Assembly: GCF_041248615.1 (NCBI RefSeq)
Contig: NZ_CP158426.1
Direction: 5' to 3' (one strand)
DNA from: Escherichia coli
GTDB lineage: Bacteria; Pseudomonadota; Gammaproteobacteria; Enterobacterales; Enterobacteriaceae
Length of the DNA: 64,000 nucleotides
Notes under the pieces: generated by a model
Seen by the model: only the letters and a program-made list of their open reading frames with translations
Told to the model about the DNA's origin: nothing
The model's database searches: none
In this document: positions 1 to 52,351 of the stretch, piece after piece
Layout: every line of letters starts with the position of its first letter
Numbering within the stretch: the stretch's first letter is position 1
Made by a program: the position numbers and the translations under genes

Positions 1-77
1 GCATGGCTATGGATTGATAAATGATATCAAAACGTATCAGCTAGTTTCCACGGTTAGAGAAGATGGCTATTATACTT

Positions 78-107
78 CAGAAACGGAACAACAGCGTTCC
101 GTTTCTG
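78..107. repeat. Perfect 12-bp inverted repeat with 6-nt loop (CAGAAACGGAAC-N6-GTTCCGTTTCTG)
   Basis: Read directly from sequence; lies upstream of the first operon; no clear T-run so not a classical terminator. Confidence 0.5.
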
Positions 108-389
108 ACGGACTGATTCTTCCGTAAATTCAGGTGTAAATCGTGGTGTGCCCATACGCTCCTCCTATGCTCAAACTATAGGGCAGGATCGTCTACCGGG
201 GTGGGGTCAGTCCACCAATGACTGAGAGGTGTCTGTTAAACCCGTGGCGATTCAGACATTACTCTTCCTATGTACACTGGAGTAGATTGAATAATCATAT
301 AATAATCAATCGGTTGAAATCATTTAGGGCTTTTGTATTAATAGTATTGAGATGGTTTGGTCATGGTTCCAGTTCATAAGGAAATAGTT

Positions 390-1442
390 ATGGGAATTAG
401 TGTTCGAGTCTTGCAAGCAAATCATGGTGATTGTTTCTTAGTTAGTTATAAGAGCTCAGATAGTGTTTACAACTTGCTAATTGATGGTGGTAATAGCGCC
501 ACATTTATGTTTGGGGCTCAAGGGCGCTACAGTGGTGAGCTTAAATGTGTACTCGATGATTTGAAAAAAGAAGGTCAGAAAATTGACTTGGTTATCTTAA
601 CCCATATAGATGATGATCATATCGGTGGTTTGCTTAGGGCTTTTGAAACACCAGGTTATCTATGCCAAATGGCTTCTTCTATCTGGTTTAATTCTTCAAG
701 ATTTATCACCAAACATTTTAAGGTTGATGAAATTTCAGACAATGATGTCTGTCTTCAAAGTAACTCAACGCAGACAAGTGCTAGGCAAGGGAAGAAACTG
801 GAAAACTTACTTGATGAAATCAATTGCGAACGGCAACCCATAGTTATTGCGGGGCAGAAGTTTACAAGGGGTCCGTTCACATTCACGATCTTATCCCCTG
901 AAGAAGATAATCTACGTAGCCTTCTTCATAAGTGGCCAGATGAGCCAGATCCGGTTACGACATCCGGTGCTTCAAGGGATTATGGAATGAAATTTGAGGA
1001 TATTTTGTCTAATGATAAATTCCAGAGTGATCAATCTGTTTATAATGGTAGCTCAATTGCTTTCATCCTTGAAGCTGATGGTAAGGCTATGCTCTTTTTG
1101 GGCGATTCACATGATGAAAATATTGTCCGTAATTTACGATCTCTTGGTTTTAATGAAGGTAACAAGCTCAAACTCGACCTCGTGAAAATTTCTCATCATG
1201 GTAGCCAGTATAATACTAGCCCTGAATTTTTGTCGCTCATAGATGCGCAAAACTTCATTATATCCACTAATGGGAGTAAGCACGGACTTCCTGATAAGAG
1301 AACTATTGCACGGATTTTATCTTCAGGAGAAGGCAAAATCGGCTTCAATTATTCGCACATTATCCAGGAGATGCTTCACGAAAATGAGGTTCCATTGTAC
1401 TCTTCTCGCCTGGTAGCATTAAATGGAGAAATTAGGCTATAA
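390..1442 (+). CDS. Metallo-beta-lactamase-fold hydrolase (ComEC/Rec2-like MBL family)
   Basis: ORF track 357..1442; ATG at 390 preceded by AGGAAA; motifs LVILTHIDDDHIGG (variant of HxHxDH) and KISHHGSQYNTS typical of MBL-fold enzymes; AT-rich. Confidence 0.7.
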   Translation: MGISVRVLQANHGDCFLVSYKSSDSVYNLLIDGGNSATFMFGAQGRYSGELKCVLDDLKKEGQKIDLVILTHIDDDHIGGLLRAFETPGYLCQMASSIWFNSSRFITKHFKVDEISDNDVCLQSNSTQTSARQGKKLENLLDEINCERQPIVIAGQKFTRGPFTFTILSPEEDNLRSLLHKWPDEPDPVTTSGASRDYGMKFEDILSNDKFQSDQSVYNGSSIAFILEADGKAMLFLGDSHDENIVRNLRSLGFNEGNKLKLDLVKISHHGSQYNTSPEFLSLIDAQNFIISTNGSKHGLPDKRTIARILSSGEGKIGFNYSHIIQEMLHENEVPLYSSRLVALNGEIRL

Positions 1443-1443
1443 A

Positions 1444-2727
1444 ATGACCGCTTCAAATTTGATGGCTTCTAACGCAGTGATCGTGAACGAGGGCAGTGGT
1501 GTTCTTGTTAATGCGATGACTCAAGATTATTCATACGTACTCACAGCAAAACATGTGTTAGCGAAATCAGGTAGTCAAAATATCGTTACTAATCAATATG
1601 GTAACAGTCTTAGAGTGCTTGATGTATTGGTGGGTCAGGAAGAGCATTGCGACTGTGCTGTAATCAAAATTGAATATGTACCAACTGTTGCTCAGCAGTC
1701 CTTCCCTGCAATAGCATTACCCAATTCGGCTTTGCTAAAGTTTGTTGGTTTTCCGGGAACCGAGAGACTAAGCGCTACCCCGCTGAAAATCTATGATGGG
1801 CATGTAACAGATGTAAGGGAGGGGCTGATTAGCTTCACGATAGAAGGCAGTCCCTCAAAAACCGCAATCGATGGAATGTCTGGCGGTGGAATGTATTACA
1901 TAGTTAATGAACATCCCCTCCTTGTTGGTGTAGAATTTGGGATGGACAGTATTCGTCAAGATCTACAATATGGACGTATACAATGTAAAAGTTTAATTGT
2001 TTTTGAAGAGATAATTAATTTAAACAGTGCTGCTCCAATGGTTCCCGCTTATTTGGAGTGTTTTTCACGCTTAAAAGAATATATCTTCGATTTTAATGTT
2101 GTTGATAAAAATAGAGTTCTGAATCTGAAAAACGCATTAAATATTTTTGCAGATGAACTTATAGACAAAGGTATGCCACCACCATTTGAATTAATGTCCA
2201 AATACAAAACTGATTTGTTAGTAGGTCCATATCAAGTTGACGATGTTAAAAATAAAGAATTATGGGTTGCATATTTTGAATTTCTGATAATTTGCGCAAT
2301 TCTTGATAATGTAAGTATTGCCAATAGTTCTTATATAGAAAGTTTAGAGCGGCGTAGGAGAATTCTTTATACTCCGGATGGAAGTAATTGGGTCGGAAAG
2401 CTTGATGTAATCTTAAAAGTTGCTCGAAAGTTATTAGATAAAGATGGCATAGTAATTGTGGCATCTCCAGAAAATGGAGCCGAATTATTACCGGATGATT
2501 TTGAAGTCGATAGGGTTATAAGGAATATTGCGCGAATCGCTAATTCAGGTCCACTTGCTCCTATCGATCAAGTTGAAAAAGAGATGTATAAGAGTTTTGT
2601 ATTAACGCATCTTGAAGGGCTGAGAAAAAAATGTGTTATAAACAAAGAGAGAATGTATGCAGAAGTTGAAGCTGGCTTAGACCAACTTCAGACGTTTAAG
2701 GAAAGCTTTAATGAATTTATTAAATAA
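1444..2727 (+). CDS. Trypsin-like serine peptidase with uncharacterised C-terminal domain
   Basis: ORF track 1423..2727; ATG at 1444 directly after upstream stop (TAA 1440-1442); candidate triad His (LTAKHV), Asp (CDCAVIKI), Ser (GMSGGGMYY); about 240 aa C-terminal extension of unknown fold. Confidence 0.7.
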   Translation: MTASNLMASNAVIVNEGSGVLVNAMTQDYSYVLTAKHVLAKSGSQNIVTNQYGNSLRVLDVLVGQEEHCDCAVIKIEYVPTVAQQSFPAIALPNSALLKFVGFPGTERLSATPLKIYDGHVTDVREGLISFTIEGSPSKTAIDGMSGGGMYYIVNEHPLLVGVEFGMDSIRQDLQYGRIQCKSLIVFEEIINLNSAAPMVPAYLECFSRLKEYIFDFNVVDKNRVLNLKNALNIFADELIDKGMPPPFELMSKYKTDLLVGPYQVDDVKNKELWVAYFEFLIICAILDNVSIANSSYIESLERRRRILYTPDGSNWVGKLDVILKVARKLLDKDGIVIVASPENGAELLPDDFEVDRVIRNIARIANSGPLAPIDQVEKEMYKSFVLTHLEGLRKKCVINKERMYAEVEAGLDQLQTFKESFNEFIK

Positions 2728-3262
2728 AGAATTTGATTTGGAATTTCTTAAATCTAGATTTTCTGATGCAGATTTCTATTTTTTTGTTTCTAATGATGAC
2801 TCATCTTATATTTCATGCGTAGCATGCTATTGTGAGAGCGCTAATTACGTGGTTGCGAATTGGACAGCGATTCAGAATTATTTATCTGCTTACTACCAAC
2901 CGAAGGATGAATTAGCTCTTTGGAATATATATTTAGTTTTCTTTTGTTCCGAAAAATTACCGATTTGGGATAAGTACCTTATAGATAATGATAAGTATTC
3001 TGTCAGAAAATTAATTATTGACGGGTTAACTACTCTGCCAAGTATTTCCGAAACTGTAACTTTTCTGAACAATCATCTGCTAGGCGCAGACCTAGAATTA
3101 ACTGAAATAGAGGAGAAGAAGGAGATAGAGTTATCATTAATTGAGTATATAAGTGGAACTCCTTTAGATTCAAAGGTTGAGTCGAGAGATGAGCGTATGA
3201 GCAGAATTGATAAAATTATTAATCTAGTGAGTTCAAATAAAAATGAAAATAAAAAAAGTTGA
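2711..3262 (+). CDS. Hypothetical protein, 183 aa, middle gene of candidate operon
   Basis: ORF overlaps upstream gene by 17 nt and downstream gene by 20 nt (translational coupling); no recognisable motif. Confidence 0.5.
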   Translation: MNLLNKEFDLEFLKSRFSDADFYFFVSNDDSSYISCVACYCESANYVVANWTAIQNYLSAYYQPKDELALWNIYLVFFCSEKLPIWDKYLIDNDKYSVRKLIIDGLTTLPSISETVTFLNNHLLGADLELTEIEEKKEIELSLIEYISGTPLDSKVESRDERMSRIDKIINLVSSNKNENKKS

Positions 3263-6200
3263 AATAGAAGGCTTTCGAGCATACAGATTCAAGGAAGATG
3301 GTACTTTCGATTTTACAAATAAAGATGATACGCCATCCAATTTTGTAGCGATCTATGCACCCAATGGCTTTGGAAAAAGTTCATTCTATGATGCGGTTGA
3401 ATGGGCTATTACTCATAATTTAGATAGATTTGCGGGTGAATATAATAAAAAAAATTATGAGCAAGCTGCCAGGAGCACGAAAGAGGACGGTGTTGCACAA
3501 AAAATACTACGTAATAAAGATGTACCAGACAATATTCCTACTCGTGTAACAGTTTTCACTACTTTACCAACTCCATTCGAACAAAGTTTAGGAACAGTTC
3601 GTTCTGATTCTAGAGATATAAGAATCGGCGAGAATAAAAATAAAATCAATGGCTATTTTAGAAAAGTGGTTCTTAGTCAAGATGAAATAGACCGTTTTTT
3701 AAAAGAAGCAAAGCCGCAAGATCGTTATAAGATGTTTATGGAGAGTTTTGGAGGTGAATGGGAAAAGGCGAGACAAGAGCTAACTATACTATTGAATGAC
3801 AATAAGGCGGTTTTGTTAAATCTCGAAAAAAACAAAAATGAACTTCAGGAACAACTAGATCAGCCTGTTGATGCGTCAACATTCATACAATTTAATAAAA
3901 TAGCATCTGAACTTGTAGCAGAAGGTGAAAGTTTACCATTAGTAGATGAAACAACTATAGTTAATACACAGCATGAGCTTTTGGAAAAAATAATCACAAG
4001 AAGTCACGAAATAAATTTTTCCTTAAACAAGAAAAAAATATTGAGAGATTCGATTTCTGAGTATATTTTAAAATTTCCTGATATCAGTTTTCGTACAACC
4101 CAGATTATCGAGAAAAAGAATAGACTAGAAAAAATAAATAAAGGGATAGAAGATGTCGGTCGTTATAAGACATTTCAGTCTACTCTTGAAAAACTGACTA
4201 TCGAAAAGAAAAAGATAAGTCAGAGCTTAAATTTTATAGAAGAATTAGATGGTTTATCCCAAGAGTTTTTAAGCTTGGAATTTAACTTGGAATCAGCTCG
4301 AAAGAAACATAGAGAGATTTCATATAATTATGAAAATGAAAAAACTCTCCTTGATAATTTATTCCAAACAAGAAACCAAAATGATGCTGATTTATCTTCA
4401 ATTGACAAGCGATGCTTATCTATACGTTCTACGTTAGAAAACGCTACGGTTACTTATTCTAATATATCTAATATACAAAATAAAATTTTAAATATAGTTT
4501 CTACGCAAACAGAATTAGAGCACAAACTTAATCAAGTTAGATCCGAATACCAAAAAAACAAATCCGAATTAAACAAAGTATCAGATTTAACAATAACCGC
4601 CAAATCATTACTTTCATCAGACTTAAGTCTAATTGATTTATCTTCAGATTTATTAAAAGAACTAAACAACTTATCGCAAGAACTAAATATATTGGTCCTA
4701 CATGATCAATCAATTCATAACACACAAGAATCTCTTTCTGCACAAATGGGAGTTCACGAACGTCTAATTGCATCGGGCCTTGAGTACTTAAGTTTATGGC
4801 CGACTAATATATGTCCTTTATGTCACAAGCCGCATGACTCTGAGTCCTCTCTTAGAGAACAAGTAACAAATACTGACGTAATATCCATGCTTAGTAAAGA
4901 GAATGCAGCTAAGCTCGAGATATCCTCAAAACGGCGGTCAGAGTTAAATGGCAAGATAGAATCCATCGTACAGAAAGCCCTTGAAATTAAAATGAGTAAA
5001 CTTGAGGTATTAAGTAAAAAGGTCAATCAACAAGGAAATGAGATACATCGAGAAGAACAGCACTATACAGCTCTTTTAGCAGAAAAACAGTCTGTCCAAA
5101 ATCAGTTAAACGAGTTGCAGAAGGCTGTAGCTGGACTAACTAAAGATGAATTATTAGCTCGCTTAGATGCTGAACTTAAAGAATTAGAGGCCAAGAAAAA
5201 TGAAGTGATAAAAAACAAGCTGACCTTGACGAAAAATATTAACGTTAAAAGAACGTTGATTACAGAGTTAAGTGGGGCGATCAATTTACTTAATACGCAA
5301 ATTCATGAAATGATGTCATCATCTAACTATTTAAAAACAAAAGCTTACTCTGAAGAAAATGGCTTGTCATCGGAGTTTTTGAAAGAACATTATGATGATA
5401 AACGCCATTTTTACCTTAAAAATATAAATGGACTCAATTTTGAGATTAATAATATTACCAGCCAATTAAATGATCTTCAGAAAGCTATGATAGCCGATGA
5501 AATGTGGCTGGATTATGAAGAAATGATTTCTGAAAAAGAGAATTTCGAGGATTATATTTCTAAATCAGAAGCGGTTTTACAATCTTATTCATCATTATTA
5601 AAGCAGCATTTTGAACTACCAAAATATGAATCTTTAGTTGAATTGAAAGATTTCCTGATAAGCTCACTTGATAAAGAAACTAGGCTTTATAATGGTCTAG
5701 AGGAACGGCTTGGAAAATATAATTTATTATCAGAACTTTTGAAAACAGCAGAGTCGTTTGTAAAAAGTATTAAGTTGCAGAATGATATTAATGAAACCTT
5801 AGGTCTTATAGAAATAAGAAAAGAAGTTGATTTAGCTCTGACTAAGGAACGAAATCAAGTAATAGAGGAACTTAGAAACTTGATAAAATCTTTCTTTTAT
5901 GAGGAACTCATTAATTCTATTTATAAGAGAATAGATCCACATCCATCACTTAAGAAAGTGGTGTTTCGCCCAGATTTTGACTCATCAGATAAACCTGGTC
6001 TTAATATAGTTGTCAGTGATGAAAAAGGTGATATGGTATCTCCAATATTATTCTTTAGTGCAGCGCAATTAAATATTCTAAGCCTTAGTGTCTTTTTAGC
6101 AAGTGCTTTGCATGCAAAAGATGATAATGGAAATGTAATTGATGTGATTATGATTGATGATCCAATTCAATCAATGGATTCAATTAATATCCTATCCACA

Positions 6201-6380
6201 ATTGATCTTCTTAGAAGTATTACCGTTAGATTCAACAAACAAATAATAATATCAACACATGACGACAATTTCTTTGGCTTGCTCCAACGTAAAATCCCTT
6301 CGGAAATATTGGGTGCCAAGTTTCTTAAATTGGAGAAATTTGGGGTTGTAGTGCCTGTTGATGATTTAAATAATACATGA
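3243..6380 (+). CDS. SMC/Rad50/RecF-like ABC ATPase with long coiled coil and central CxxC motif
   Basis: N-terminal Walker A YAPNGFGKSSFYDAVEWAI; long K/E/L/Q-rich coiled-coil middle; CPLCHKP near centre; C-terminal signature-like FSAAQLNILSLS, Walker B VIMIDDP, His-switch ISTHD. Confidence 0.8.
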   Translation: MKIKKVEIEGFRAYRFKEDGTFDFTNKDDTPSNFVAIYAPNGFGKSSFYDAVEWAITHNLDRFAGEYNKKNYEQAARSTKEDGVAQKILRNKDVPDNIPTRVTVFTTLPTPFEQSLGTVRSDSRDIRIGENKNKINGYFRKVVLSQDEIDRFLKEAKPQDRYKMFMESFGGEWEKARQELTILLNDNKAVLLNLEKNKNELQEQLDQPVDASTFIQFNKIASELVAEGESLPLVDETTIVNTQHELLEKIITRSHEINFSLNKKKILRDSISEYILKFPDISFRTTQIIEKKNRLEKINKGIEDVGRYKTFQSTLEKLTIEKKKISQSLNFIEELDGLSQEFLSLEFNLESARKKHREISYNYENEKTLLDNLFQTRNQNDADLSSIDKRCLSIRSTLENATVTYSNISNIQNKILNIVSTQTELEHKLNQVRSEYQKNKSELNKVSDLTITAKSLLSSDLSLIDLSSDLLKELNNLSQELNILVLHDQSIHNTQESLSAQMGVHERLIASGLEYLSLWPTNICPLCHKPHDSESSLREQVTNTDVISMLSKENAAKLEISSKRRSELNGKIESIVQKALEIKMSKLEVLSKKVNQQGNEIHREEQHYTALLAEKQSVQNQLNELQKAVAGLTKDELLARLDAELKELEAKKNEVIKNKLTLTKNINVKRTLITELSGAINLLNTQIHEMMSSSNYLKTKAYSEENGLSSEFLKEHYDDKRHFYLKNINGLNFEINNITSQLNDLQKAMIADEMWLDYEEMISEKENFEDYISKSEAVLQSYSSLLKQHFELPKYESLVELKDFLISSLDKETRLYNGLEERLGKYNLLSELLKTAESFVKSIKLQNDINETLGLIEIRKEVDLALTKERNQVIEELRNLIKSFFYEELINSIYKRIDPHPSLKKVVFRPDFDSSDKPGLNIVVSDEKGDMVSPILFFSAAQLNILSLSVFLASALHAKDDNGNVIDVIMIDDPIQSMDSINILSTIDLLRSITVRFNKQIIISTHDDNFFGLLQRKIPSEILGAKFLKLEKFGVVVPVDDLNNT

Positions 6381-6406
6381 TTTATTTAGTGTGTTAACCA
6401 TAAAAT

Positions 6407-6440
6407 AAGAACTGGGCCAGTGACGACCCAGTTCTTATTT
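6407..6440 (+). terminator. Hairpin terminator after ATPase gene
   Basis: AAGAACTGGG-N10-CCCAGTTCTT followed by ATTT, 27 nt after stop at 6380. Confidence 0.5.
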
Positions 6441-7696
6441 ATAGGGGAACCTATTTTTATCGCAATAAATTAAGAGCGAAGATATGGTGAAAATTGTTAA
6501 AATATGAATTTTTTTAATTTTTTATCTAAAGCCCCTGTTTTCATTATCGTATAAATCAATCTGGACGATTTGTTCTTCAGGTGCAAGGGTATCCGCAAAC
6601 TAGCGCAGGCTATCACCGCCTATAAGCTCCAGAATATGATCAAGTCCATGCCCTCCTGACAACCCAATCGCCTGTAATGACCATTCAGGAATGATTTGCT
6701 CTTTTGATGACTCAACCACAAATGTATCGAGCTCAGTCTTTGCTTAGAGCAGAATTTGAGCCCAAGACTTCCACTCGTATCATCGTAGGTCAGCGTTTCT
6801 CAGAAAATAACCCATGTAACCACGGCATCCGTCTCCGAATGTTATCCTAGAAACAATATTGAGGGGGGAATGTAGAATCATAACCTCTGAATTAACGTAG
6901 ATTAAATCATTCGATCTAAATCAGAGCATTCATAGTGATGGTACACTCAGCACCAGACAAAGATCTCTAGGGGTTTGTTCTAATAAACATGGCCCTCATT
7001 CCTTCTGGTGAAATTCGGAATCTGATTGCGTAGGATAATTACATCCAGGAATCGGGCTAGCATTACAGCCCCCTAAGGGTGTTGTTTGCAACGGTTCATG
7101 TTTGTCTGAGTAACTATATTCCTGAATGTGTTGCTCCGAATTTACGGATTGCCTTGCAGAAAAGGGCTGTTCTGGCGTTGTGCTTTGAAAGGCGTACACC
7201 TGAGGAGCACAGAGCCACAGGAAGGGCAGTAGGGTGCAGCGGGCGAGTACATTCATATATTCTCCAGACAGAATTCATACCAATTATATGATATGCCAGA
7301 TTGACTCAATAAAGCGTTAACGAAGAACGAAAATATAAGACCAGGTATAGAACTCGACATGCCGATAGTCGCCGGGAAATATCGTGGCCAGATTTTTTGT
7401 TAATGCTCATAGTCAGGCAACAAGGGTCGCTGCAGTAATGACTTCTGAACCTTATAACAAATTTCGGCACGACACTTTTATCATCTTTTTCATAATAAAA
7501 CCTCCGTTTTTGTTTTAATCGTCCTCCGGATGTTTCGGACATTGGATGCCCGTAACATCCGGAGGCTGCGGGTGCGGGCGGCAAAGAGCCCGTGAAGATG
7601 CCCGGAATGAATGGCAAACCCCCTCAGGAATGAAGAAAATACGCAATCAATGCTGGGGTGCTTTGTTGATCACTTTTACTGAAGTACTTTTCTATC

Positions 7697-8416
7697 TCAG
7701 AAGTAGGTTGTCCAGAAAGAGGAAACTGGCATCGCCAGTACCAATGCAGGAAGCATACTGGCTACCGGGAAGACCTTGATACCGGAAATACGCAGGCCGG
7801 TCGCCACCATTAGAACGCCACCCACAGCTGAAAAGTCGGCCTGCATGGCAGGCGTGGTCAGGGGCAATATATATATCGCGCTGTAGGCGAGTGCTAACTG
7901 AATGATAAGCTGGGGGAAAGCGACTAATGCCACGGCGTAACCCAGGGTTGTGGCAAAAATGAGGGCGGTCAGCAAATCCAGGAACGCTTTCGCGATAAGG
8001 ATACTCGAGTCCCCGGTCATGCCTTCGTGCATCGCACCAAAAATACCGGTGCCACTGGCACAAAAAAGGACGATGATCGCCACATAGTTTTGTAAAAACT
8101 GCGCCTGTGAGTCTTTGTCTCCGGGATCGCTTTTCACGACGAGCTCCACCAACCCACGGGCTTGTCCGCCCAGGTGGCTTATCCCTTTTTCCAGATAGCA
8201 GAGCTCGCCCACCAGTGTGCCGAGAAGGACCGATAGAACCATGACGGGCATATGGCTGACACTTGTCACAAGGACGATCCCCATACACAGGGAGGCAGCA
8301 CCAAAAATGAGCGGCATTGAGGTACGTAACCTTTCAGGTAGACGTGAGCTAATGATGGCTCCTGCCATCCCGCCGATCACGACGGCAGAGCCGTTGAACC
8401 ATGGGCCTGTAATCAT
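7697..8416 (-). CDS. DUF554 family inner-membrane protein (YqgA-like)
   Basis: Hydrophobic 239-aa ORF; recalled similarity to E. coli YqgA including NYVAIIVLFCASGTGIFG and ILPLTTP; overlaps UbiX-like stop by 4 nt. Confidence 0.7.
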   Translation of the reverse strand: MITGPWFNGSAVVIGGMAGAIISSRLPERLRTSMPLIFGAASLCMGIVLVTSVSHMPVMVLSVLLGTLVGELCYLEKGISHLGGQARGLVELVVKSDPGDKDSQAQFLQNYVAIIVLFCASGTGIFGAMHEGMTGDSSILIAKAFLDLLTALIFATTLGYAVALVAFPQLIIQLALAYSAIYILPLTTPAMQADFSAVGGVLMVATGLRISGIKVFPVASMLPALVLAMPVSSFWTTYF

Positions 8417-9027
8417 AGCGATTTACTCCTGTTATTCAGGTTGGGAGTTTCACCCCAGCGCGGCAATGTGTCGCAATCAAGGTCGAGTAAACTCAGCGCC
8501 CGCGCAACACTATGAGCGAAGATGTTCTCAGTACTTGCAGGGCGTGCATACCAGGCAGGTACGGGTGGAAAAATGATGCCGCCGGTTTCGGTAACCTGAA
8601 GCATGTTACGAAGGTGCCCGGTATGCAGCGGCGTTTCCCGTACCATCAGAACCAGCCTCCGGCGCTCTTTCAGGGTCACATCGGCTGCCCGCACCAGCAA
8701 ACTGTTGGTTAAGCCCGCCGCAACAGCGGCGAGGGTGTTCATAGAGCAGGGGACAATCAACATCCCGGATGCCCTGAACGAACCGCTGGCGATGTCGGCT
8801 GCAATATCATCAAAGGGATAAATTACATCAGCCAGCTTATGAACGTCGTCTTCTGACAAAGTGGTTTCCAGACTGCGGGTCAGATGAGCGGCAGGAGAAA
8901 TCACAACGTGACTTTCCACGTTAAGTTGTCGCAGATAACGCAGGGCCTGCACTCCATATAAAAAACCGGATGCACCACTGATCCCAATGATGACGCGCTT
9001 GCGAGGAGAACATTCAGATGTCGACAT
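8413..9027 (-). CDS. UbiX/Pad1-family flavin prenyltransferase
   Basis: N-terminal VIIGISGASGFLYG motif typical of UbiX; 204 aa; directly downstream of UbiD-like gene. Confidence 0.85.
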   Translation of the reverse strand: MSTSECSPRKRVIIGISGASGFLYGVQALRYLRQLNVESHVVISPAAHLTRSLETTLSEDDVHKLADVIYPFDDIAADIASGSFRASGMLIVPCSMNTLAAVAAGLTNSLLVRAADVTLKERRRLVLMVRETPLHTGHLRNMLQVTETGGIIFPPVPAWYARPASTENIFAHSVARALSLLDLDCDTLPRWGETPNLNNRSKSL

Positions 9028-9037
9028 TATGGCGTCC

Positions 9038-10522
9038 TCAGTACTTGAAGTTATCCGGGAGGAAACGACTGATCTCGACCTCCATGAATTCGCTGCGGCG
9101 AAACTGGCCTTTCATCGTGAACGGAACGGTACAGTCGAAAATAGTTTTACAGGCGATCCCGTGGTCGCGGACGGAGTAACTAAAAGCCGGGTCAGAGGAC
9201 GGATCGAGGGGATGGCACCTTACGCCGGGTATGAACACCGTGCTGATATCCCCCTGATAGCGTGTCGTCATTGCCCATATCACGTCATTGAGATCGAAAA
9301 TATCCACATCGTCATCAACCAGAATCACATGCTTGAGTTCCGAGAATGCGGAGAAGGCCAGAAGAGCCGCCTGGCGCTGACGACCTTCATCGTTTGGCAG
9401 ACGTTTTTTCACCTGCAATACGGCAAGATATTTTCCGGTCCCGGGTGACGGGCAGTGAACATTTTGCACAAAGCCGGGAAGGGCGCGCTCCACCAGTTGC
9501 AGAATACTGGCCTCGGTGGGGATCCCTGCCATATTGGTATGCTCGTCACTTGGACCAATGCAGGTCTGTAGAATTGGGTGACGGCGGTGGGTGATGGCTT
9601 TCACTTTTATCACTGGCACCATTTGCTGTGCCTGTCCGGTATAGCCGGGGAATTCCGGCATGGCTTTACCACTGTTGGTATTTTGATCCTCCCTGACCCG
9701 ATAGTTAGGAATGAGTTCCCCCTCGATAACGACTTCGGCGTTCGCAATGGCCCGGGCATTCACGGTCAGACACTGGCACAGCTCAACAGGCTGTTTACGC
9801 AAGCTCCCTGCCACTGACAGTTCGTCAAAACCAAGTGGAGTTGTGGGCGGTTCGAAGCAGGCACCGATTTCAATGGCTGGGTCAACACCAATGCTGATCG
9901 AGATGGGAAGTGGGGCCCCATCTTCCTCTGCTTTCTGACGGAACAAATCCAGATGCCGACCGGGAACGAAGTACATGGATATTTCATCCCTGTTTTGCAC
10001 GCACAGTCGGTGAATAGTGATGTCATGCTCGCCGGTATGTGGATCGGCGGCGTAGCACATACCGAGAGTGAAGTAAGGACCGGCATCCTCCGGCGTATTC
10101 GTGGGTGCTGGCAGGATATTGAGGATACTGAAATCCGGATCGGATGCCAGATGGACTACTTCCTGACAGACGGCATTTTCCTGCGGAATAACGACAGGAC
10201 TTATCGGGGTGCTTACCGCGTCTTTCAGTAAAAAGGCCAGCTTATCGGGTGTGGTATCCAGTAGCCGGGCCACGCGTTTTCGCGAGGCGAGAAGACCTAT
10301 CAGCACTCGCATATCGGTATAGCCTTTAATCCGGTTAAAGAGCATGGCTGGACCGATACGAGTCGGACGCATGACCGTACCGTGTGCCCCAATGTAGCGG
10401 TACACCCCTGACAGTTCTGCACTTGGATCAACGGGTTCATCGGTTTCGATAAGCTCATCATCAAACTTGCGCAGTACGGCCAGCGCACTGCGTAGGTCAG
10501 TCACTTTTTGTGTTTGAGACAT
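9038..10522 (-). CDS. UbiD-family (prFMN-dependent) decarboxylase
   Basis: 494-aa ORF with UbiD-like size and sequence character; paired with UbiX-like gene as in non-oxidative aromatic acid decarboxylase operons. Confidence 0.8.
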   Translation of the reverse strand: MSQTQKVTDLRSALAVLRKFDDELIETDEPVDPSAELSGVYRYIGAHGTVMRPTRIGPAMLFNRIKGYTDMRVLIGLLASRKRVARLLDTTPDKLAFLLKDAVSTPISPVVIPQENAVCQEVVHLASDPDFSILNILPAPTNTPEDAGPYFTLGMCYAADPHTGEHDITIHRLCVQNRDEISMYFVPGRHLDLFRQKAEEDGAPLPISISIGVDPAIEIGACFEPPTTPLGFDELSVAGSLRKQPVELCQCLTVNARAIANAEVVIEGELIPNYRVREDQNTNSGKAMPEFPGYTGQAQQMVPVIKVKAITHRRHPILQTCIGPSDEHTNMAGIPTEASILQLVERALPGFVQNVHCPSPGTGKYLAVLQVKKRLPNDEGRQRQAALLAFSAFSELKHVILVDDDVDIFDLNDVIWAMTTRYQGDISTVFIPGVRCHPLDPSSDPAFSYSVRDHGIACKTIFDCTVPFTMKGQFRRSEFMEVEISRFLPDNFKY

Positions 10523-10651
10523 TACGTTTTCCTCAGTAAGTCGCCGGGAGACAGCATGCCCGGTGTGCTTTTATCTTCATCCTGCAGGCAATCACAGGAC
10601 GAGCCGTTACATCACTGACAGTATGTGAGGCAACATAAATCCCCGTCTAAT

Positions 10652-10675
10652 CACATTAACGACGTTTTTAATGTG
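10652..10675. promoter_or_regulatory. Interrupted palindrome CACATTAA-N8-TTAATGTG, candidate LysR-type regulator binding site
   Basis: Located in divergent intergenic region between the UbiD-like operon and the LysR gene; dyad of the kind used by LTTRs. Confidence 0.4.
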
Positions 10676-10710
10676 GGATTGTTATCGAAAAATAGTGATT
10701 GGAGGAACGT

Positions 10711-11592
10711 GTGGACTATCGGTATTTGCATGCATTTGTGGTGCTTGCCAGAGAACTGCATTTTGGAAAAGCCGCACTGCGGCTCAACATCACGCAGCCA
10801 GCCTTAAGCCGTCAGATTAGAGTGCTGGAAGATCAGCTTGGCATGGTGCTATTTACGCGTGATCGTCGTCATGTGGCGCTGACTGTGGAAGGAACTCAGC
10901 TTGCAGCGGAGGCGCGGAGCGCCGTCAGTCATTACGAAAAAATGCTGAGCCGTGCGAGTAGCCTTCGAAAAGGCTATAAAGGACAACTCATACTGGGTTA
11001 TGTCGGATCTTCCATTCTTGATCCCGCCCTGACACGGTTAATCACCTGTTTTCGCGAGACTAAACCGGATGTTGAGATTGTTATTGAGGAGCACAACGTT
11101 GACGAACAGCTCACCCTCCTGCTCGACCATCAACTGGATATGGGGCTGCTCCGATCGCCTGTTCCGCATTTTGCCAACCTGGACTACGTGGATATCGCCA
11201 CCAGGTCACTCATCGCCGCAGTACCGCACACGCATCCGCAGGCAGGAGTCGGTAAAATAGAGCTGGAGACGTTGTCCGGGGATACATTTATGATCCAGAA
11301 AGATCCGCCCGGGGTCGGGCTAGGCTGGTCTGCATTACATGCCTGTGAGATGGCCAGTTTTGTCCCACCCAAAATCTATTTTACTCGCGATGTTGCGGTG
11401 GCTATTGGCATGGTGTCGATGGGAATAGGAGTTACGCTGGTGCCAGAAACCCAGCGTTCTGTAACGTTGCCTAATGTCTGCTACTGCCTGCTGCACGATC
11501 CCGAGGTCACAACGACCTTAACGCTTTGCTGGCCGAAATTCAGGAAAAGCAGGGAATTGATAGAGTTTGTACGCTCTTTAACGCTTGGTTGA
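10711..11592 (+). CDS. LysR-family transcriptional regulator
   Basis: N-terminal HTH LHFGKAALRLNITQPALSRQIRVLEDQLG; GTG at 10711 with GGAGG 5 nt upstream (ORF track starts at TTG 10699); divergent from decarboxylase operon. Confidence 0.85.
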   Translation: MDYRYLHAFVVLARELHFGKAALRLNITQPALSRQIRVLEDQLGMVLFTRDRRHVALTVEGTQLAAEARSAVSHYEKMLSRASSLRKGYKGQLILGYVGSSILDPALTRLITCFRETKPDVEIVIEEHNVDEQLTLLLDHQLDMGLLRSPVPHFANLDYVDIATRSLIAAVPHTHPQAGVGKIELETLSGDTFMIQKDPPGVGLGWSALHACEMASFVPPKIYFTRDVAVAIGMVSMGIGVTLVPETQRSVTLPNVCYCLLHDPEVTTTLTLCWPKFRKSRELIEFVRSLTLG

Positions 11593-12133
11593 ATCTTAAG
11601 AAGCTGCAGTTGAGTCATAGCCAGCGATCAAAATTGAGAAGACAAAACCGGGGAGAGGTGCCCGCAGTTTCTGCCCCAGCTCCCATCTTCAGGAAGATGT
11701 GTTTCAGGAATGCATTCGTGATGCTGGGGATAGCGGCAAGACGATTTTCTCATCGGGTAACTCTGCGGTATCGGAACAGTTGACGACGGCAGGGTGGTGA
11801 ATGGGAACCTCAGGATGAAGCGCTCGGGCAAGAGGGATGGACTGTGCTGAAGAGAACACTGACAGAACGAGCATGATGCTTGCAAAAAGGGGACTCTGGA
11901 TATTCATTGTTTATCTCCTGATGATATTCATCGCTCCAGAGAATACGCTTGCCACTCTTTTTATTTGTTTTCCTGAATTAAAAATGCCCGGTTTTATGTG
12001 GTTCTTCCGTAAACGTTATTACATTAATTAACATCTAGTTTCTATCTCCGAAATGAGGTAAAAAAATAATTGTCGTGGTTTTTATCAAACAAATTTACCG
12101 GCAGCTCAGATCCGAACTAATACCTGGAAATTC

Positions 12134-12182
12134 AAACCCCAAACCCCAAACCCCAAACCCCAAACACCAAACCCCAAACACC
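12134..12182. repeat. Tandem heptanucleotide repeat (AAACCCC/AAACACC) x7
   Basis: Read directly: four AAACCCC, then AAACACC, AAACCCC, AAACACC; complementary strand is (GGGGTTT)n. Confidence 0.9.
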
Positions 12183-12412
12183 ATTTCACCGCTGGCGTGT
12201 AAGGGGCTCTATATCTGTTTATTCAGGGATAGTTTTTTCTCCCGTGTGATTTCCGTTCATGTATCTGCTTCCGGTTAATCGTTTCCCAGCACAACCCGTC
12301 CCGCAAGGGTAAATGGCACGCCTGCTGCGCCCTTGCGGGATGGAACGATGCCGGGAAAGCGAACCGTCAGGCGATACGAAGACGAAAATCACACCACTGA
12401 CGGAGAAAAAAA

Positions 12413-13357
12413 ATGACTATGTCCCTGCATACCAAGATAAGTGCCCCTAACACGACAGCGGCGACCAGCGTATCCTCGCTGGATCTGTCAGGCTCCTCAA
12501 AAACGAAATGTTCAACAGCCAGAACCGATATTTATCAGACTGTTACCGACAGCATAATTGCGGCGCTGGAAACCGGAGTAAAACCTTGGGTGTGTCCTTG
12601 GCAGCGAGCTCCCGGTATGTCCGGTTTACCGTCCAATTACGCCACTGGTAAGGCTTACAGCGGAATGAATATCATGTTGCTTTGGTGCAGCGCGTCAAAA
12701 CAGGGATTCTGTGATTCACGCTGGATGACCTACAAACAGGCAAAAGCGGTAGGTGGGCAGGTGCGCAAGGGAGAACACGGCACTACCGCGATTTTCTATA
12801 CCACGCTGGAAAAGGAAAATGATAACGGAGAAACTGACTATATTCCTATGCTGAAAGCATTCACTGTGTTTAATGTTGAACAAATTGACGGTTTACTCCT
12901 GAGTGATGATGCCGTTTTTCCGGCAGAGATCTTTGAGCCATTACCACGTGCAGAAGCACTTTTTCGTAGTAGCGGTGCAACCATTATTGAAAAAGGACAG
13001 AATGCTTTTTTTACACCATCAACCGACGAAATTCGCTTACCTGAACGGTATCTTTTTATTGATGCTGCTAATTTCTACGCAACCGGCCTGCATGAGCTCG
13101 TTCACTGGAGTGGGGCAAAAAGTCGGCTGAACCGTGAAATGAAAGGGAAATTTGGCAGCGAGGGGTATGCGTTTGAAGAGTTGATCGCTGAGCTGGGGAG
13201 CGCATTCCTGATGGCGGATCTGGGGATAGTTGGAGAAGTTCTGCATGACAGTTATATCGCTTCCTGGCTTAAAGCACTGAGGAATGATAAACGCTATATT
13301 TTCAAGGCCGCCAGCGCGGCATCGAAAGCACATCGCTATTTGATGGATAAAAGCTGA
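12413..13357 (+). CDS. ardC: ArdC-like antirestriction protein (ssDNA-binding N-domain plus zincin-like metallopeptidase C-domain)
   Basis: DIYQTVTDSIIAALETGVKPW N-terminal ArdC-type motif; HExxH motif GLHELVHWSG in C-terminal half; hairpin after stop. Confidence 0.75.
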   Translation: MTMSLHTKISAPNTTAATSVSSLDLSGSSKTKCSTARTDIYQTVTDSIIAALETGVKPWVCPWQRAPGMSGLPSNYATGKAYSGMNIMLLWCSASKQGFCDSRWMTYKQAKAVGGQVRKGEHGTTAIFYTTLEKENDNGETDYIPMLKAFTVFNVEQIDGLLLSDDAVFPAEIFEPLPRAEALFRSSGATIIEKGQNAFFTPSTDEIRLPERYLFIDAANFYATGLHELVHWSGAKSRLNREMKGKFGSEGYAFEELIAELGSAFLMADLGIVGEVLHDSYIASWLKALRNDKRYIFKAASAASKAHRYLMDKS

Positions 13358-13651
13358 GTAGCAAAAAGCCGCAAAGGAATGCGGCTTAATGGGCTGGGGG
13401 TACTAAACCAGTAAAGGTTTAGTCAGTAATATTAGTGAAGCAGAGCAAGTATCGAACAGTCATATTCCTGTAGTGGTATTAAGACAACCTTAAGAAGGGA
13501 CTGATGTATAGCTACTCTTGTATACCCATCCATGGAAAATTCGGTTGTATTGCCGGGTTGATATGTGCAGGTTGGTCCCGACCCAAGAAGTTTTTACTGT
13601 GAAAATTGTCAAACTATATCAATGTGGTAACAGCTTCTCTTGTCCCTTTGG

Positions 13652-14002
13652 TTATTTCAAATTGGACCGGGCTATCTGTTGCAACACGGTTGCTCTGCTT
13701 GAAACAGAGTTAACATATGCAACATCAGATACTTTGAGTTTGATCAGATCATAGCCTCGTAGCTTACTGTCCAAGGTCATATTGAACAGAGTTAAATCGC
13801 GCATTTTACCTTCCATTTCAAGCCTGATTCGGATCCCCCCTGATATGAGATATCTGAAGTGGTCTTTTTGGTCAGTGATACTTACAATACGGTCTTTGTC
13901 CCACGGTGACGTGTTCATACTCAAAGCTCCTGTAATGTTGGAGATTTGAGCATGGTTATCCCTCATGAGCGAGGAACGGACAATGTCCCTTGCGCGATCC
14001 AA
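13652..14002 (-). CDS. Hypothetical protein, possible recombinase-like remnant
   Basis: 116-aa ORF; weak resemblance (LRGYDLIKLKVSDV) to tyrosine recombinase core motif; no clear start context. Confidence 0.25.
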   Translation of the reverse strand: MDRARDIVRSSLMRDNHAQISNITGALSMNTSPWDKDRIVSITDQKDHFRYLISGGIRIRLEMEGKMRDLTLFNMTLDSKLRGYDLIKLKVSDVAYVNSVSSRATVLQQIARSNLK

Positions 14003-14200
14003 GATTGATTTTTCTTATTAAATTAAGCTATGGCTGACCTACGAACGATAGGCAAAATGCTCCTAAAGCTACGGCTTATGACAGTAAAAAACATATTGAT
14101 AAAAATCTGAGCTGGTTTAGAATGCTATAATGGAATAATTATTTATTTTCGGCCTTCAGTTTGATCATTTTTAGAAATCACCCTTTTGAAGGAATCTACA

Positions 14201-14995
14201 ATGGAATCAGAAGAAACGAAAGAAGAGAGTTATCAACAGCGTTCGGAGTTTATCAGAAAAATAATTCAACAGCCTGTTGAGGGTGTCATATCTTCATGCA
14301 CTATACCAAAAAAAATAATTCAATTTTGGGATTCATCCAATACTATCCCTAATGATGTCAGACATTGCATGAAATCATGGCGTATCTTAGAACCTTTTGG
14401 GTATGAGTATTTACTATATGATTTCGTTAGCGCCCAAGAATTTATTAAACATAATTTGGGTGAAACATACAGTGAAGCTTTTGCCAAGTGTACTCATCCT
14501 GCTATGCAATCAGATTATTTCCGATTATGTTATATCTCGGTAAACGGGGGATTTTATGTTGACACTGATGATGTTTATCTGGGTAGTGAGATAAGTAGTT
14601 TTTTCACGGATGATAAGTTAAAAATACAACCTTTATGCTACGATATTTCCACCGATTCTATGATTCCACCAGAAATTTTTACAAAGGAAAATACTTATGA
14701 AGAATCTTGGATTTTTTATTTCAACAACAACCCGTTAATTGCTCCGCCTCATCATGTTATCATTGATAAGGCACTAGAGCAATCCACATACTTACTTAAT
14801 AAATCAAGCTATCCTCTCACAGATATTCAGTCAACAACTGGTCCTGGTAATCTATCTAAATCTATTTTCTCGTGTCGCGAGGAAATAGATTTATTATCCC
14901 AGATTACGGTAGTATCAAACTGGCAAGATATTGCAGAAACTAAGTGGGATTTAGAATACAGAGCTGATTCTAGAAATTGGCGCTTGATGAATTAA
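14201..14995 (+). CDS. Glycosyltransferase with DXD motif (Gly_transf_sug-like)
   Basis: IIQFWDSSN...CMKSW and GGFYVDTDDVY motifs; ATG 14201 with GAAGGA upstream (track start is TTG 14186); AT-rich. Confidence 0.65.
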   Translation: MESEETKEESYQQRSEFIRKIIQQPVEGVISSCTIPKKIIQFWDSSNTIPNDVRHCMKSWRILEPFGYEYLLYDFVSAQEFIKHNLGETYSEAFAKCTHPAMQSDYFRLCYISVNGGFYVDTDDVYLGSEISSFFTDDKLKIQPLCYDISTDSMIPPEIFTKENTYEESWIFYFNNNPLIAPPHHVIIDKALEQSTYLLNKSSYPLTDIQSTTGPGNLSKSIFSCREEIDLLSQITVVSNWQDIAETKWDLEYRADSRNWRLMN

Positions 14996-15010
14996 CATGG
15001 ATTTTTAATA

Positions 15011-49855: not shown

Positions 49856-49931
49856 TGGCTCCTCTGACTGGACTCGAACCAGTGACATACGGATTAACAG
49901 TCCGCCGTTCTACCGACTGAACTACAGAGGA
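49856..49931 (-). tRNA. asnT: tRNA-Asn (anticodon GUU)
   Basis: Reverse complement reads TCCTCTGTAGTTCAGTCGGTAGAACGGCGGACTGTTAATCCGTATGTCACTGGTTCGAGTCCAGTCAGAGGAGCCA; matches recalled E. coli tRNA-Asn; next to mtfA as at the E. coli asnT locus. Confidence 0.95.
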
Positions 49932-50922: not shown

Positions 50923-51012
50923 GGAGAGATGCCGGAGCGGCTGAACGGACCGGTCTCGAAAACCGGAGTGGGGGCAACTCCACCGGGGGTTCAAATCCCC
51001 CTCTCTCCGCCA
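50923..51012 (+). tRNA. serU: tRNA-Ser (anticodon CGA)
   Basis: 90-nt GGAGAGATGCCGGAGCGGCTGAACGGACCGGTCTCGAAAACCGG...CCCCCTCTCTCCGCCA with long variable arm. Confidence 0.9.
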
Positions 51013-51064
51013 AAATTCAATCACTTACACATCATTAAGTCAGTGACAAAAATCACACTTGGAA

Positions 51065-52090: not shown

Positions 52091-52293
52091 CAGATCGCAC
52101 CAAAATTCGGCTCTACCTCGCGTGGTGGTAAAGTTTTATTGCAGGTAAATAGATCCCGGCTGACAATCGGTTTGCCACTACGATTGGTATAGAACGGAAG
52201 CCCGTTTTCCATTAACCATTTTCGCTGGTGGCTTGCATATTTGCAGCCCGTTAATATTAGCAATTCATCTTCGGTTAAAAATAAGCTGCTCAT
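52090..52293 (-). CDS. xis: Excisionase-like protein
   Basis: 67 aa; immediately upstream of integrase with 1-nt overlap. Confidence 0.65.
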   Translation of the reverse strand: MSSLFLTEDELLILTGCKYASHQRKWLMENGLPFYTNRSGKPIVSRDLFTCNKTLPPREVEPNFGAI

Positions 52294-52351
52294 AGCTATA
52301 TCTCATAACCGCCGCTAACTATATACGGTTAGCGGCAATTAGGGTTGAACA

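What the first reader, a model, noticed from the sequence alone, without database searches (positions are those of the whole stretch)
390..1442. MBL-fold protein with non-canonical metal-binding motif (HIDDDH instead of HxHxDH)
Seen in sequence: LVILTHIDDDHIGG where the second His of the canonical motif is Asp, plus SHHGS further on. Established knowledge: ComEC/Rec2-type and other MBL-fold nucleases use HxHxDH for a binuclear metal site. Inference: could be a nuclease effector with altered metal coordination, or a non-catalytic binding module.
Basis: partly seen in the sequence, partly recalled or inferred. Interest (0 to 1): 0.5.

Follow-up and report, generated by a model that had tools for sequence, protein, structure and literature searches.

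The report
Protease-activated DNase of Lamassu defence
The gene encodes a latent DNA-cutting enzyme of a Lamassu anti-phage operon, and its "odd" HxDxDH metal motif is the normal signature of the ComEC-like branch of this enzyme family, so the finding is real but ordinary.

Summary
ORF 390-1442 (+) encodes a 350-aa MBL-fold protein with HIDDDH (aa 72-77) and SHHGS (aa 268-272).

ComEC-type MBL nucleases themselves use HxDxDH (solved ComEC domain 9IC4: H598-x-D600-x-D602-H603). In 142 cluster representatives of this family the motif is fixed: H72 141/142, D74 138/142, D76 and H77 142/142. N101, D239, H269 and H270 are invariant. The metal site therefore looks intact and is typical of the clade.

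The gene is the first of a four-gene Lamassu / ABC-3C "hydrolase-protease" operon:
- MBL, 390-1442
- trypsin-like protease fused to CTD4 (LmuA), 1423-2727
- LmuC, 2711-3262
- long SMC-like LmuB, 3243-6380

Three 2025 studies showed that homologous MBLs in Hachiman and AVAST systems are gated pro-nucleases. The partner protease cuts two loops and this releases DNase activity.

Here the AF2 model (pLDDT 94.3) has two low-confidence loops, aa 121-140 and 181-200. They carry twin sites T129|S130 and T191|S192. Their P3-P1 residues co-vary across the family, and they align with the mapped K-S|S sites of Hachiman MBLs.

Verdict: a new member of a known kind, low interest. Activation in a Lamassu context and Thr at P1 remain untested.

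The parts
390..1442 (+). MBL-fold pro-nuclease gene (350 aa). It is the 'hydrolase' of a Lamassu hydrolase-protease system. RefSeq calls it 'ComEC/Rec2 family competence protein'.
   Evidence: PADLOC LmuA PDLC03854 6.8e-125 over the full length. Pfam Lactamase_B 3.4e-9. AF2 pLDDT 94.3. Best PDB fold match is ComEC MBL domain 9ic4, E 3.2e-13.
603..620 (+). Motif II, H72-I-D74-D-D76-H77 (HxDxDH). Inferred metal ligands and general base.
   Evidence: H72 141/142, D74 138/142, D76 142/142, H77 142/142. Aligns to HPDADH of ComEC 9ic4. ComEC D611A/D613A abolishes Mn binding and nuclease activity (PMC8579336).
690..692 (+). N101 (W-F-N), candidate motif III Asn replacing the superfamily His.
   Evidence: Invariant 142/142. 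It sits at the end of strand 97-99, after the motif II helix. ComEC has Asn at motif III (PMC8579336). The assignment is inferred; it was not checked on coordinates.
1104..1106 (+). D239 (L-G-D), motif IV bridging Asp.
   Evidence: Invariant 142/142. Aligned with the ComEC 'saD' / 'tgD' Asp. The equivalent catalytic mutant VcMBL D276A is dead (PMC12642450).
1191..1205 (+). Motif V, S268-H269-H270-G271-S272.
   Evidence: H269 and H270 142/142, S272 139/142, K266 139/142. Aligns to K-V-P-HHGS of ComEC. H725 and S728 of 9IC4 are implicated in catalysis and substrate binding (PMC12455585).
750..809 (+). Gating loop 1 (aa 121-140) with predicted scissile bond T129|S130 (nt 774-779).
   Evidence: Mean pLDDT 65-74, and aa 128-132 below 50. 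Column 129 is T67/I23/M12/V10/L8 and column 130 is S116/G19. Aligns with the first K-S|S of the Hachiman MBL P0232.
930..989 (+). Gating loop 2 (aa 181-200) with predicted scissile bond T191|S192 (nt 960-965). The register is uncertain by +/-1 residue.
   Evidence: Mean pLDDT 73-80. Column 191 is T57/I23/M15 and column 192 is S73/A28/G11. The P1 residue is identical to site 1 in 92/142 sequences, against 33+/-4 by permutation. BLASTP places this site one residue off relative to MAFFT.
1423..2727 (+). LmuA: trypsin-like serine protease (H44, D77, S153) fused to ABC-3C CTD4. Presumed activator of the MBL. The true start may be ATG1444.
   Evidence: Pfam Trypsin_2 8.1e-8 and CTD4 6.1e-52. PADLOC LmuA PDLC03855 1.2e-122, aligned from aa 8. 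Triad motifs located.
2711..3262 (+). LmuC / ABC-3C middle component 1.
   Evidence: Pfam MComp1 9.3e-10. PADLOC LmuC 1.8e-44.
3243..6380 (+). LmuB: long SMC/Rad50-like ABC ATPase (1045 aa), the presumed sensor. Contains Walker A GFGKSS, signature-like SAAQ at aa 939 and Walker B VIMIDD at aa 968.
   Evidence: PADLOC LmuB PDLC03865 1.6e-269. Pfam SMC_N, AAA_23 and AAA_13 hits (only AAA_23 comes close to its Pfam gathering score, 24.7 bits vs 27). Motifs.
6403..6440 (+). Perfect 14-nt inverted repeat with a 10-nt loop and a T-rich tail, 23 nt after the lmuB stop. Probable operon terminator.
   Evidence: repeat I18.

Best explanation
The gene encodes the latent DNase effector of a four-gene 'long' Lamassu (ABC-3C) hydrolase-protease anti-phage system.

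Shown here:
- A ComEC-like MBL fold.
- A complete ComEC-type dinuclear metal site: H72, D74, D76, H77, N101, D239, H269, with H270, S272 and K266 as conserved neighbours.
- Two flexible loops that the ComEC domain lacks.
- A conserved operon: MBL, trypsin-CTD4, MC1/LmuC, SMC-like LmuB.

Inferred from experiments on homologues in Hachiman and AVAST systems:
1. The protein is made as an inactive zymogen whose two loops occlude the active site.
2. The LmuB/LmuC sensor detects infection, most likely through phage DNA ends or replication structures as in other Lamassu systems.
3. The LmuA protease domains are brought together and become active.
4. They cut both loops, here predicted at T129|S130 and T191|S192.
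5. The nicked three-fragment enzyme then degrades DNA indiscriminately with Mn2+ or Zn2+, which stops phage replication by abortive infection.

The Asp at the third position of motif II is a metal ligand typical of this clade, not a defect.
For: Operon identity:
- PADLOC LmuA/LmuA/LmuC/LmuB hits at 6.8e-125, 1.2e-122, 1.8e-44 and 1.6e-269.
- Pfam CTD4, MComp1 and Trypsin_2.
- The same gene order is seen around homologues at 56% and 39% identity.

Active site:
- Invariance across 142 representatives at 31-56% identity.
- Motif-by-motif alignment to ComEC MBL domains.
- Fold match to 9ic4 at E 3.2e-13 and TMt 0.70, followed by Pce.
- HxDxDH and the motif III Asn are described for the active Mn-dependent ComEC nuclease (PMC8579336, PMC12455585).

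Gating:
- Low-pLDDT loops at aa 121-140 and 181-200 in an otherwise >95 model.
- The profile alignment leaves about 66 extra residues between motif II and the C-terminal half, relative to ComEC.
- The twin sites have [T/I/M/V/L]-[S/G/A].
- P1, P2 and P3, but not the P2'/P3' residues, match between the two sites far more often than by permutation: P1 92 vs 33.5, P2 38 vs 14, P3 40 vs 13, 0 of 5,000-10,000 shuffles. Control column pairs show no such match.
- In 56 nearest-neighbour pairs that differ at site-1 P1, site 2 stayed unchanged in only 11.
- P0232, which lies in a trypsin-HamA/HamB operon, carries K-S-S at both aligned sites. This matches the mapped S|S cleavages 63 residues apart in bioRxiv 10.1101/2025.09.03.673762.

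Published mechanism in homologues: PMC12799240 and PMC12642450.

Lamassu hydrolase-protease system validated for defence: cited in 10.1101/2025.04.02.646746 and in Millman et al..
Against: - No experiment exists on this protein or, in the papers I read, on any Lamassu-linked MBL. Tuck et al. extend the model to Lamassu by analogy only.
- I had no model coordinates, so I did not verify that the two loops actually cover the active site.
- Mapped P1 residues in homologues are Ile or Ser, not Thr.
- BLASTP and MAFFT disagree by one residue at site 2.
- In this particular protein P2 and P3 differ between the two sites (T-Q-T|S vs V-T-T|S).
- Metal preference is unresolved: ComEC CTD uses Mn2+, VcMBL prefers Zn2+.
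Confidence: 0.85

Rival explanations
1. Non-catalytic MBL-fold binding module. The His-to-Asp change has disabled metal binding and the protein only binds DNA or another ligand.
For: The motif departs from the superfamily consensus HxHxDH. Some ComEC orthologues, such as S. pneumoniae, are thought to be inactive.
Against: All inferred ligands are invariant or nearly so in 142 diverged relatives. The same HxDxDH is found in biochemically active ComEC nucleases. Catalytic-site mutants of homologues abolish defence.
Confidence: 0.03
2. Ungated partner. The MBL is a constitutively regulated or accessory hydrolase, and the adjacent protease acts on a different (phage or host) substrate, so the two loops are merely surface decorations.
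For: No cleavage data exist for any Lamassu-type MBL. Thr at P1 has not been mapped experimentally.
Against: Concerted P3-P1 switching at both loops across the family is hard to explain without a shared protease. MBL-protease adjacency is strictly conserved. Gating is demonstrated in two unrelated sensor contexts.
Confidence: 0.07
3. Small-molecule phosphodiesterase, for example Pce-like phosphorylcholine esterase or a cyclic-nucleotide hydrolase like Apyc1, rather than a nuclease.
For: Pce (1wra/2bib) is the second-best fold match. There is a weak sequence hit to Apyc1 7u2r.
Against: ComEC is the closer relative by both sequence and fold. The homologous Hachiman MBL showed no beta-lactamase, Pce or RNase activity and only DNase activity after cleavage.
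Confidence: 0.04
4. Genuine ComEC/Rec2 competence protein, as RefSeq names it, or a fragment of one.
For: RefSeq product name. Best PDB sequence hits are ComEC.
Against: It is only 350 aa with an MBL domain alone. TIGR00361 ComEC_Rec2 scores 35.3 bits against a cut-off of 190. There is no competence/channel domain hit. It is embedded in a defence operon of foreign GC content.
Confidence: 0.01

Closest known systems
Short-form Hachiman MBL (trypsin-HamAB-MBL; bioRxiv 10.1101/2025.09.03.673762) and PflHamM (Tuck et al., Science 2025, PMC12799240)
   Same: It is homologous: 35% identity to the Hachiman-context member P0232. It has the same HxDxDH site, lies directly upstream of a trypsin-like protease fusion, and has two loops with twin cut sites about 62-63 residues apart.
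   Different: The sensor is an SMC-like LmuB/LmuC rather than the HamB helicase. The protease is fused to ABC-3C CTD4 rather than to a dead HamA. Predicted P1 is Thr (x-T|S) rather than Ser (K-S|S) or Ile.
Avs1a / VcMBL / AtMBL of AVAST systems (Gao 2020; Evans et al., PMC12642450)
   Same: Same family: PADLOC Avs1a 1e-49 and NCBIfam Avs1a 2.6e-61. Those proteins are two-site zymogens that become metal-dependent dsDNases.
   Different: It scores below the NCBIfam Avs1a cut-off (207.5 vs 420 bits). The partner is not a STAND NTPase. The AVAST forms are longer, with Ile|Ser sites about 100 residues apart.
ComEC C-terminal MBL nuclease domain (PDB 9IC4; M. thermoacetica CTD)
   Same: It is the closest solved structure. 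It shares motif II HxDxDH, an Asn at motif III, the bridging Asp and K-x-x-HHGS. It is a DNA endo/exonuclease.
   Different: ComEC's domain is extracytoplasmic, fused to a membrane channel and an OB fold, constitutively active, and lacks the two loops (about 66 fewer residues between motif II and the C-terminal half).
Lamassu 'Hydrolase-Protease' system of Bacillus cereus B4077 (Millman et al. 2022, as cited in 10.1101/2025.04.02.646746)
   Same: Same system type: long LmuB, LmuC, protease-LmuA and a separate hydrolase-like protein. It is experimentally defensive.
   Different: It comes from a different phylum, and I did not compare the sequences directly. Its MBL activation mechanism is not reported in the papers I read.
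Pce/CbpE phosphorylcholine esterase (1WRA, 2BIB)
   Same: It is the second-closest fold, with a binuclear MBL site.
   Different: Pce has the canonical HxHxDH and a motif III His, binds Zn and acts on a small-molecule substrate. It has no gating loops.

Membership tests
Metallo-beta-lactamase (MBL) fold superfamily | alpha-beta/beta-alpha sandwich fold | tested here: met
   AF2 pLDDT 94.3, pTM 0.93. 231 PDB matches at E<=1e-3; all 50 listed are MBL-fold proteins.
Metallo-beta-lactamase (MBL) fold superfamily | Five metal-binding motifs (D; HxHxDH; H; D; H) | tested here: met
   Present as D32, H72-x-D74-x-D76-H77, N101, D239 and H269. All are invariant or nearly so. Two positions carry the ComEC-type substitutions (His to Asp, His to Asn).
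ComEC-like MBL nuclease clade | Motif II HxDxDH and K-x-x-HHGS, with ComEC MBL domains as nearest relatives | tested here: met
   The motif is described in PMC12455585 and PMC8579336.
ComEC/Rec2 competence protein (RefSeq product name) | Membrane competence/channel domain; whole-protein score above the TIGR00361 cut-off | tested here: not met
   35.3 bits against a cut-off of 190. Only the MBL domain is found in 350 aa.
Protease-gated MBL pro-nuclease (HamM / Avs1a / VcMBL type) | [quoted passage not shown] | tested here: met
   The same arrangement holds in relatives.
Protease-gated MBL pro-nuclease (HamM / Avs1a / VcMBL type) | Two disordered insertions, absent from ComEC, that occlude the active site | tested here: inconclusive
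   There are two low-pLDDT loops (aa 121-140, 181-200) and about 66 extra residues relative to ComEC. Occlusion could not be checked because no coordinates were available.
Protease-gated MBL pro-nuclease (HamM / Avs1a / VcMBL type) | One conserved cleavage residue in each loop | tested here: met
   T129|S130 and T191|S192. Column composition is, twin-site covariation, and alignment to the K-S|S sites of the Hachiman member.
Protease-gated MBL pro-nuclease (HamM / Avs1a / VcMBL type) | Proteolysis converts the inactive protein into a DNase | not testable with these tools
   This needs biochemistry. It is shown only for homologues.
Lamassu / ABC-3C system (long type, hydrolase-protease) | LmuB SMC-like ABC ATPase, LmuC middle component, and LmuA effector with a family CTD, all in one operon | tested here: met
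   PADLOC 1.6e-269, 1.8e-44 and 1.2e-122. Pfam CTD4 and MComp1. Adjacent ORFs overlap by 17-20 nt.
Lamassu / ABC-3C system (long type, hydrolase-protease) | Confers phage defence | not testable with these tools
   A B. cereus system of the same type was validated.
Avs1a (NCBIfam NF041809) | Score above the curated cut-off; STAND NTPase partner | tested here: not met
   207.5 bits against a cut-off of 420. The partner is LmuA/B/C.

The most novel reading that the evidence does not exclude
This would be a Lamassu-coupled version of the pro-nuclease module that no paper I read has tested. An SMC/Rad50-like DNA sensor licenses a protease with Thr-P1 specificity. The P3-P1 'code' at the twin cut sites co-evolves with the protease, repeatedly and in concert across the family (T/T, I/I, M/M, K/K, L/L, S/S, C/C). 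If so, the family is a natural library of orthogonal protease-zymogen pairs. Lamassu activation, through CTD4-driven oligomerisation, would then be directly readable as MBL cleavage.
Probability: 0.5. Interest if true: 0.35.

Novelty: new member of a known kind. Interest (0 to 1): 0.2.

Why it matters
- It corrects a misleading annotation. RefSeq calls the protein "ComEC/Rec2 family competence protein".
- It corrects a misleading premise. HxDxDH is normal for ComEC-like nucleases.
- It places a rare E. coli gene (9 of 5,426 complete genomes) in a defined anti-phage mechanism.
- The residual value is modest. The protein gives concrete, testable cut sites for a Lamassu-linked pro-nuclease, a context where proteolytic activation has only been assumed by analogy. 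The twin-site covariation offers a simple sequence rule for predicting the protease specificity of such modules.

Tried and rejected
- **I115 and I205 as cut sites.** I first considered them by analogy with I118/I218 of HamM. They are conserved among close homologues (119/120 and 116/120), and a weak DNA direct repeat (727-750 / 987-1010) encodes both regions. I rejected them. They lie in ordered segments (pLDDT >=95; I205 is in helix 202-207). They are followed by Pro or Trp in most close homologues. They are not conserved as a pair in the wider family.
- **tRNA/tmRNA integration site upstream.** None was found in 1-12000. The left flank is an IS3 fragment.
- **Residue-level alignment of motif III with ComEC.** I could not obtain it. 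HMMER aligned only the N- and C-terminal thirds, so the N101 assignment stays inferred.
- **Rfam scan.** It found no RNA element in or near the operon.

Full report
**Observation**

The ORF at 390-1442 (+) is real. It encodes 350 aa from ATG390, which is preceded by AAGGAA. HIDDDH is aa 72-77 (nt 603-620) and SHHGS is aa 268-272 (nt 1191-1205). The window is 100% identical to E. coli NRZ14408 (NZ_LT599825.1). There the CDS is annotated WP_172408780.1, "ComEC/Rec2 family competence protein". The family is large: 2,896 homologues at E<=1e-5 and 2,519 50%-identity cluster representatives at E<=1e-10.

**Context**

The gene is the first of four tightly packed ORFs whose ends overlap:
- MBL, 390-1442
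- ABC-3C middle component 1, 2711-3262
- a 1045-aa SMC-like ABC ATPase, 3243-6380

The evidence is as follows.
- PADLOC models call the four proteins LmuA (6.8e-125), LmuA (1.2e-122), LmuC (1.8e-44) and LmuB (1.6e-269). Pfam agrees.
- The protease keeps H44, D77 and S153. LmuB keeps its Walker A, signature-like and Walker B motifs.
- A perfect hairpin follows lmuB at 6403-6440.
- The operon has 31-41% GC against 50-54% for its neighbours.
- Only 9 of 5,426 complete E. coli genomes carry it.
- The same gene order surrounds homologues at 56% and 39% identity in unrelated metagenomic contigs.

This is the "long" Lamassu hydrolase-protease type. One example, from B. cereus B4077, has been validated as a defence system (10.1101/2025.04.02.646746; Millman et al.).

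**The motif**

I aligned the query with 141 cluster representatives of at least 300 aa that are 31-56% identical to it.

| Position | Conservation (of 142) |
|---|---|
| H72 | 141 |
| D74 | 138 (His in 3) |
| D76 | 142 |
| H77 | 142 |
| D32, N101, D239, H269, H270 | 142 each |
| D14 | 140 |
| K266 | 139 |
| S272 | 139 |

HxDxDH is therefore the family's own consensus.

It is also ComEC's consensus. phmmer and profile searches of the PDB give ComEC MBL domains as the best hits. They align THIDDDHIGG to THPDADHIGG and K-I-SHHGS to K-V-PHHGS. The 9IC4 paper gives the motif as H598-x-D600-x-D602-H603, with D602 as general base (PMC12455585). Silale et al. state that in ComEC an Asp replaces a motif II His and an Asn replaces the motif III His. 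They also show that D611A/D613A abolishes Mn2+ binding and nuclease activity (PMC8579336).

The site looks catalytically complete. N101, invariant and at the end of the strand after the motif II helix, is the likely motif III Asn. This is inferred.

**Structure**

AF2 with a 146-sequence alignment gives pLDDT 94.3 and pTM 0.93. Foldseek against the PDB ranks the ComEC MBL domain 9ic4 first (E 3.2e-13, TMt 0.70). Next come Pce/CbpE, and then beta-CASP nucleases and RNase J.

Only two segments are of low confidence: aa 121-140 (128-132 below 50) and aa 181-200. In the profile alignment, ComEC spans with 46 residues what takes 112 profile positions here. The extra material therefore lies between motif II and the C-terminal half.

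**Published mechanism for homologues**

- Tuck et al. (Science 2025, PMC12799240) showed that HamM and Avs1a are gated pro-nucleases. The partner trypsin-like protease cuts after a conserved Ile in each of two loops, which unmasks a non-specific DNase. They list Lamassu among the systems that carry the pair but extend the model to it only by analogy.
- Evans et al. (PMC12642450) mapped VcMBL cuts at I133|S134 and I232|S233. They found a Zn2+-preferring dsDNase, and D276A is dead. They list four ABC-3C types among the sensors.
- A third preprint (10.1101/2025.09.03.673762) mapped S128|S129 and S191|S192 in K-S-S motifs of a short-form Hachiman MBL. It found no beta-lactamase, Pce or RNase activity.

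**Cut sites here**

The two flexible loops each contain a conserved dipeptide, T129-S130 and T191-S192.
- Across the family these columns read T/I/M/V/L/K followed by S/G/A. This matches the published Ile|Ser and Ser|Ser sites.
- P0232 has S-V-K-S-S at both aligned positions, 63 residues apart. It sits upstream of a Trypsin-HamA fusion and a HamB helicase.
- The two sites resemble each other within each protein on the non-prime side only. The table gives the number of sequences with the same residue at both sites, against the permutation mean.

| Subsite | Observed | Permutation mean |
|---|---|---|
| P1 | 92/142 | 33.5 |
| P2 | 38 | 14 |
| P3 | 40 | 13 |

- None of 5,000-10,000 shuffles reached these values. 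P2' and P3' show no excess, and neither do five control column pairs.
- Among 56 nearest-neighbour pairs that differ at site-1 P1, site 2 stayed the same in only 11. The switches are repeated and concerted, not one inherited event.
- This is the pattern expected of two substrates of one co-evolving protease.
- There is a caveat: BLASTP shifts site 2 by one residue relative to MAFFT.

**Mechanism proposed**

1. LmuB/LmuC sense infection.
2. The CTD4-anchored protease domains of LmuA are activated, probably by oligomerisation.
3. They cut the MBL at T129|S130 and T191|S192.
4. The nicked enzyme degrades DNA using a dinuclear Mn2+ or Zn2+ site, which aborts the infection.

Shown here: the fold, the active-site conservation, the loops, the twin sites and the operon. 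Inferred from homologues: the gating, the DNase activity and the trigger.

A natural observation fits the model. In strain 2018-06-4CC an ISApl1 element splits lmuA between its protease and CTD4 parts, while the MBL protein remains identical. This is compatible with an inert zymogen when the protease is uncoupled from its sensor.

**Verdict**

Its central point of interest, a non-canonical motif, dissolves: this is the standard motif of the ComEC-like clade, already described in the literature. The protein belongs to a module characterised in 2025. It is a new, untested member in the Lamassu context, and interest is low.

Noticed in passing
window 774-779 and 960-965; family alignment in /scratch: Across the MBL family the two predicted protease sites share P3-P1 residues within each protein, for example NRQIS/NRQIS, SVKSS/SVKSS and DKYTS/EKYTS. 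They switch in concert between near relatives (T/T, I/I, M/M, K/K, L/L, S/S, C/C). This looks like a readable specificity code for the partner protease.
   Followed up: yes
L012 (E. coli 2018-06-4CC, NZ_AP021893.1) 2356-3330, corresponding to about window 2150-2200: An ISApl1 (IS30-like) insertion splits the protease-CTD4 gene into an 'S1 family peptidase' and a CTD4 remnant, while the MBL protein stays identical. This is a natural knock-out that uncouples the protease from the sensor.
   Followed up: partly
window 1423 vs 1444: The start of the protease gene is ambiguous. RefSeq uses ATG1423, which overlaps the MBL gene by 20 nt. The PADLOC LmuA model aligns only from aa 8, which fits ATG1444, 2 nt after the MBL stop codon.
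   Followed up: no
P0154, P0169, P0188 (relatives; L006 for P0169): Three of 142 family representatives carry the canonical His at the third motif II position (HSHEDH, HIHDDH). P0169 is still followed by a Trypsin_2 protein, so both ligand types occur in the gated family.
   Followed up: partly
window 273-6587; L011 (NCTC9087): The Lamassu cassette occurs at 90% identity in five other E. coli genomes. The left flank is the same (shiA, GT9, Ig-like pseudogene, IS3) but the right flank differs (DUF4150/DUF2169 T6SS-type genes). This suggests a variable hotspot next to an IS3 element. An IS3 fragment lies at window 72-254.
   Followed up: partly
window about 20343-49694, tRNA-Asn at 49859-49931 (-): There is an ICE-like block: MobC, a type IV coupling protein, a full VirB-type T4SS, TraR/AlpA regulators, porins, an iron ABC transporter and a tyrosine integrase abutting tRNA-Asn.
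   Followed up: no
window 50923-64000: A lambdoid prophage remnant sits at tRNA-Ser (50923-51009). It carries a frameshifted integrase, an exonuclease, dicB, DicF RNA (55438-55489), ydfABC, an FRG-domain protein (about 59702-61036) and hokD/sok (sok at 61662-61836).
   Followed up: no
window 8413-17212: Cargo genes lie between the Lamassu operon and hchA: UbiX/UbiD-family decarboxylase pair with a LysR regulator (8413-11592), an ArdC-family protein (12413-13357) beside a degraded integrase (13517-13918), and a GT32 plus GH16 pair (14201-17212).
   Followed up: no
window 6381-7696: About 1.3 kb has no annotated gene between lmuB and the DUF554 gene. It contains the hairpin 6403-6440 and a second strong hairpin 7523-7565 (20-nt arms, 3-nt loop), probably the terminator of the minus-strand DUF554 operon.
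   Followed up: no
L004 6001-13104 (relative P0248): One MBL relative with identical NRQIS twin sites is followed by a 307-aa protein with no Pfam hit and then a 1776-aa WD40/beta-propeller-HATPase protein, not by a recognisable trypsin fusion. This may be an undescribed sensor context for the module.
   Followed up: no
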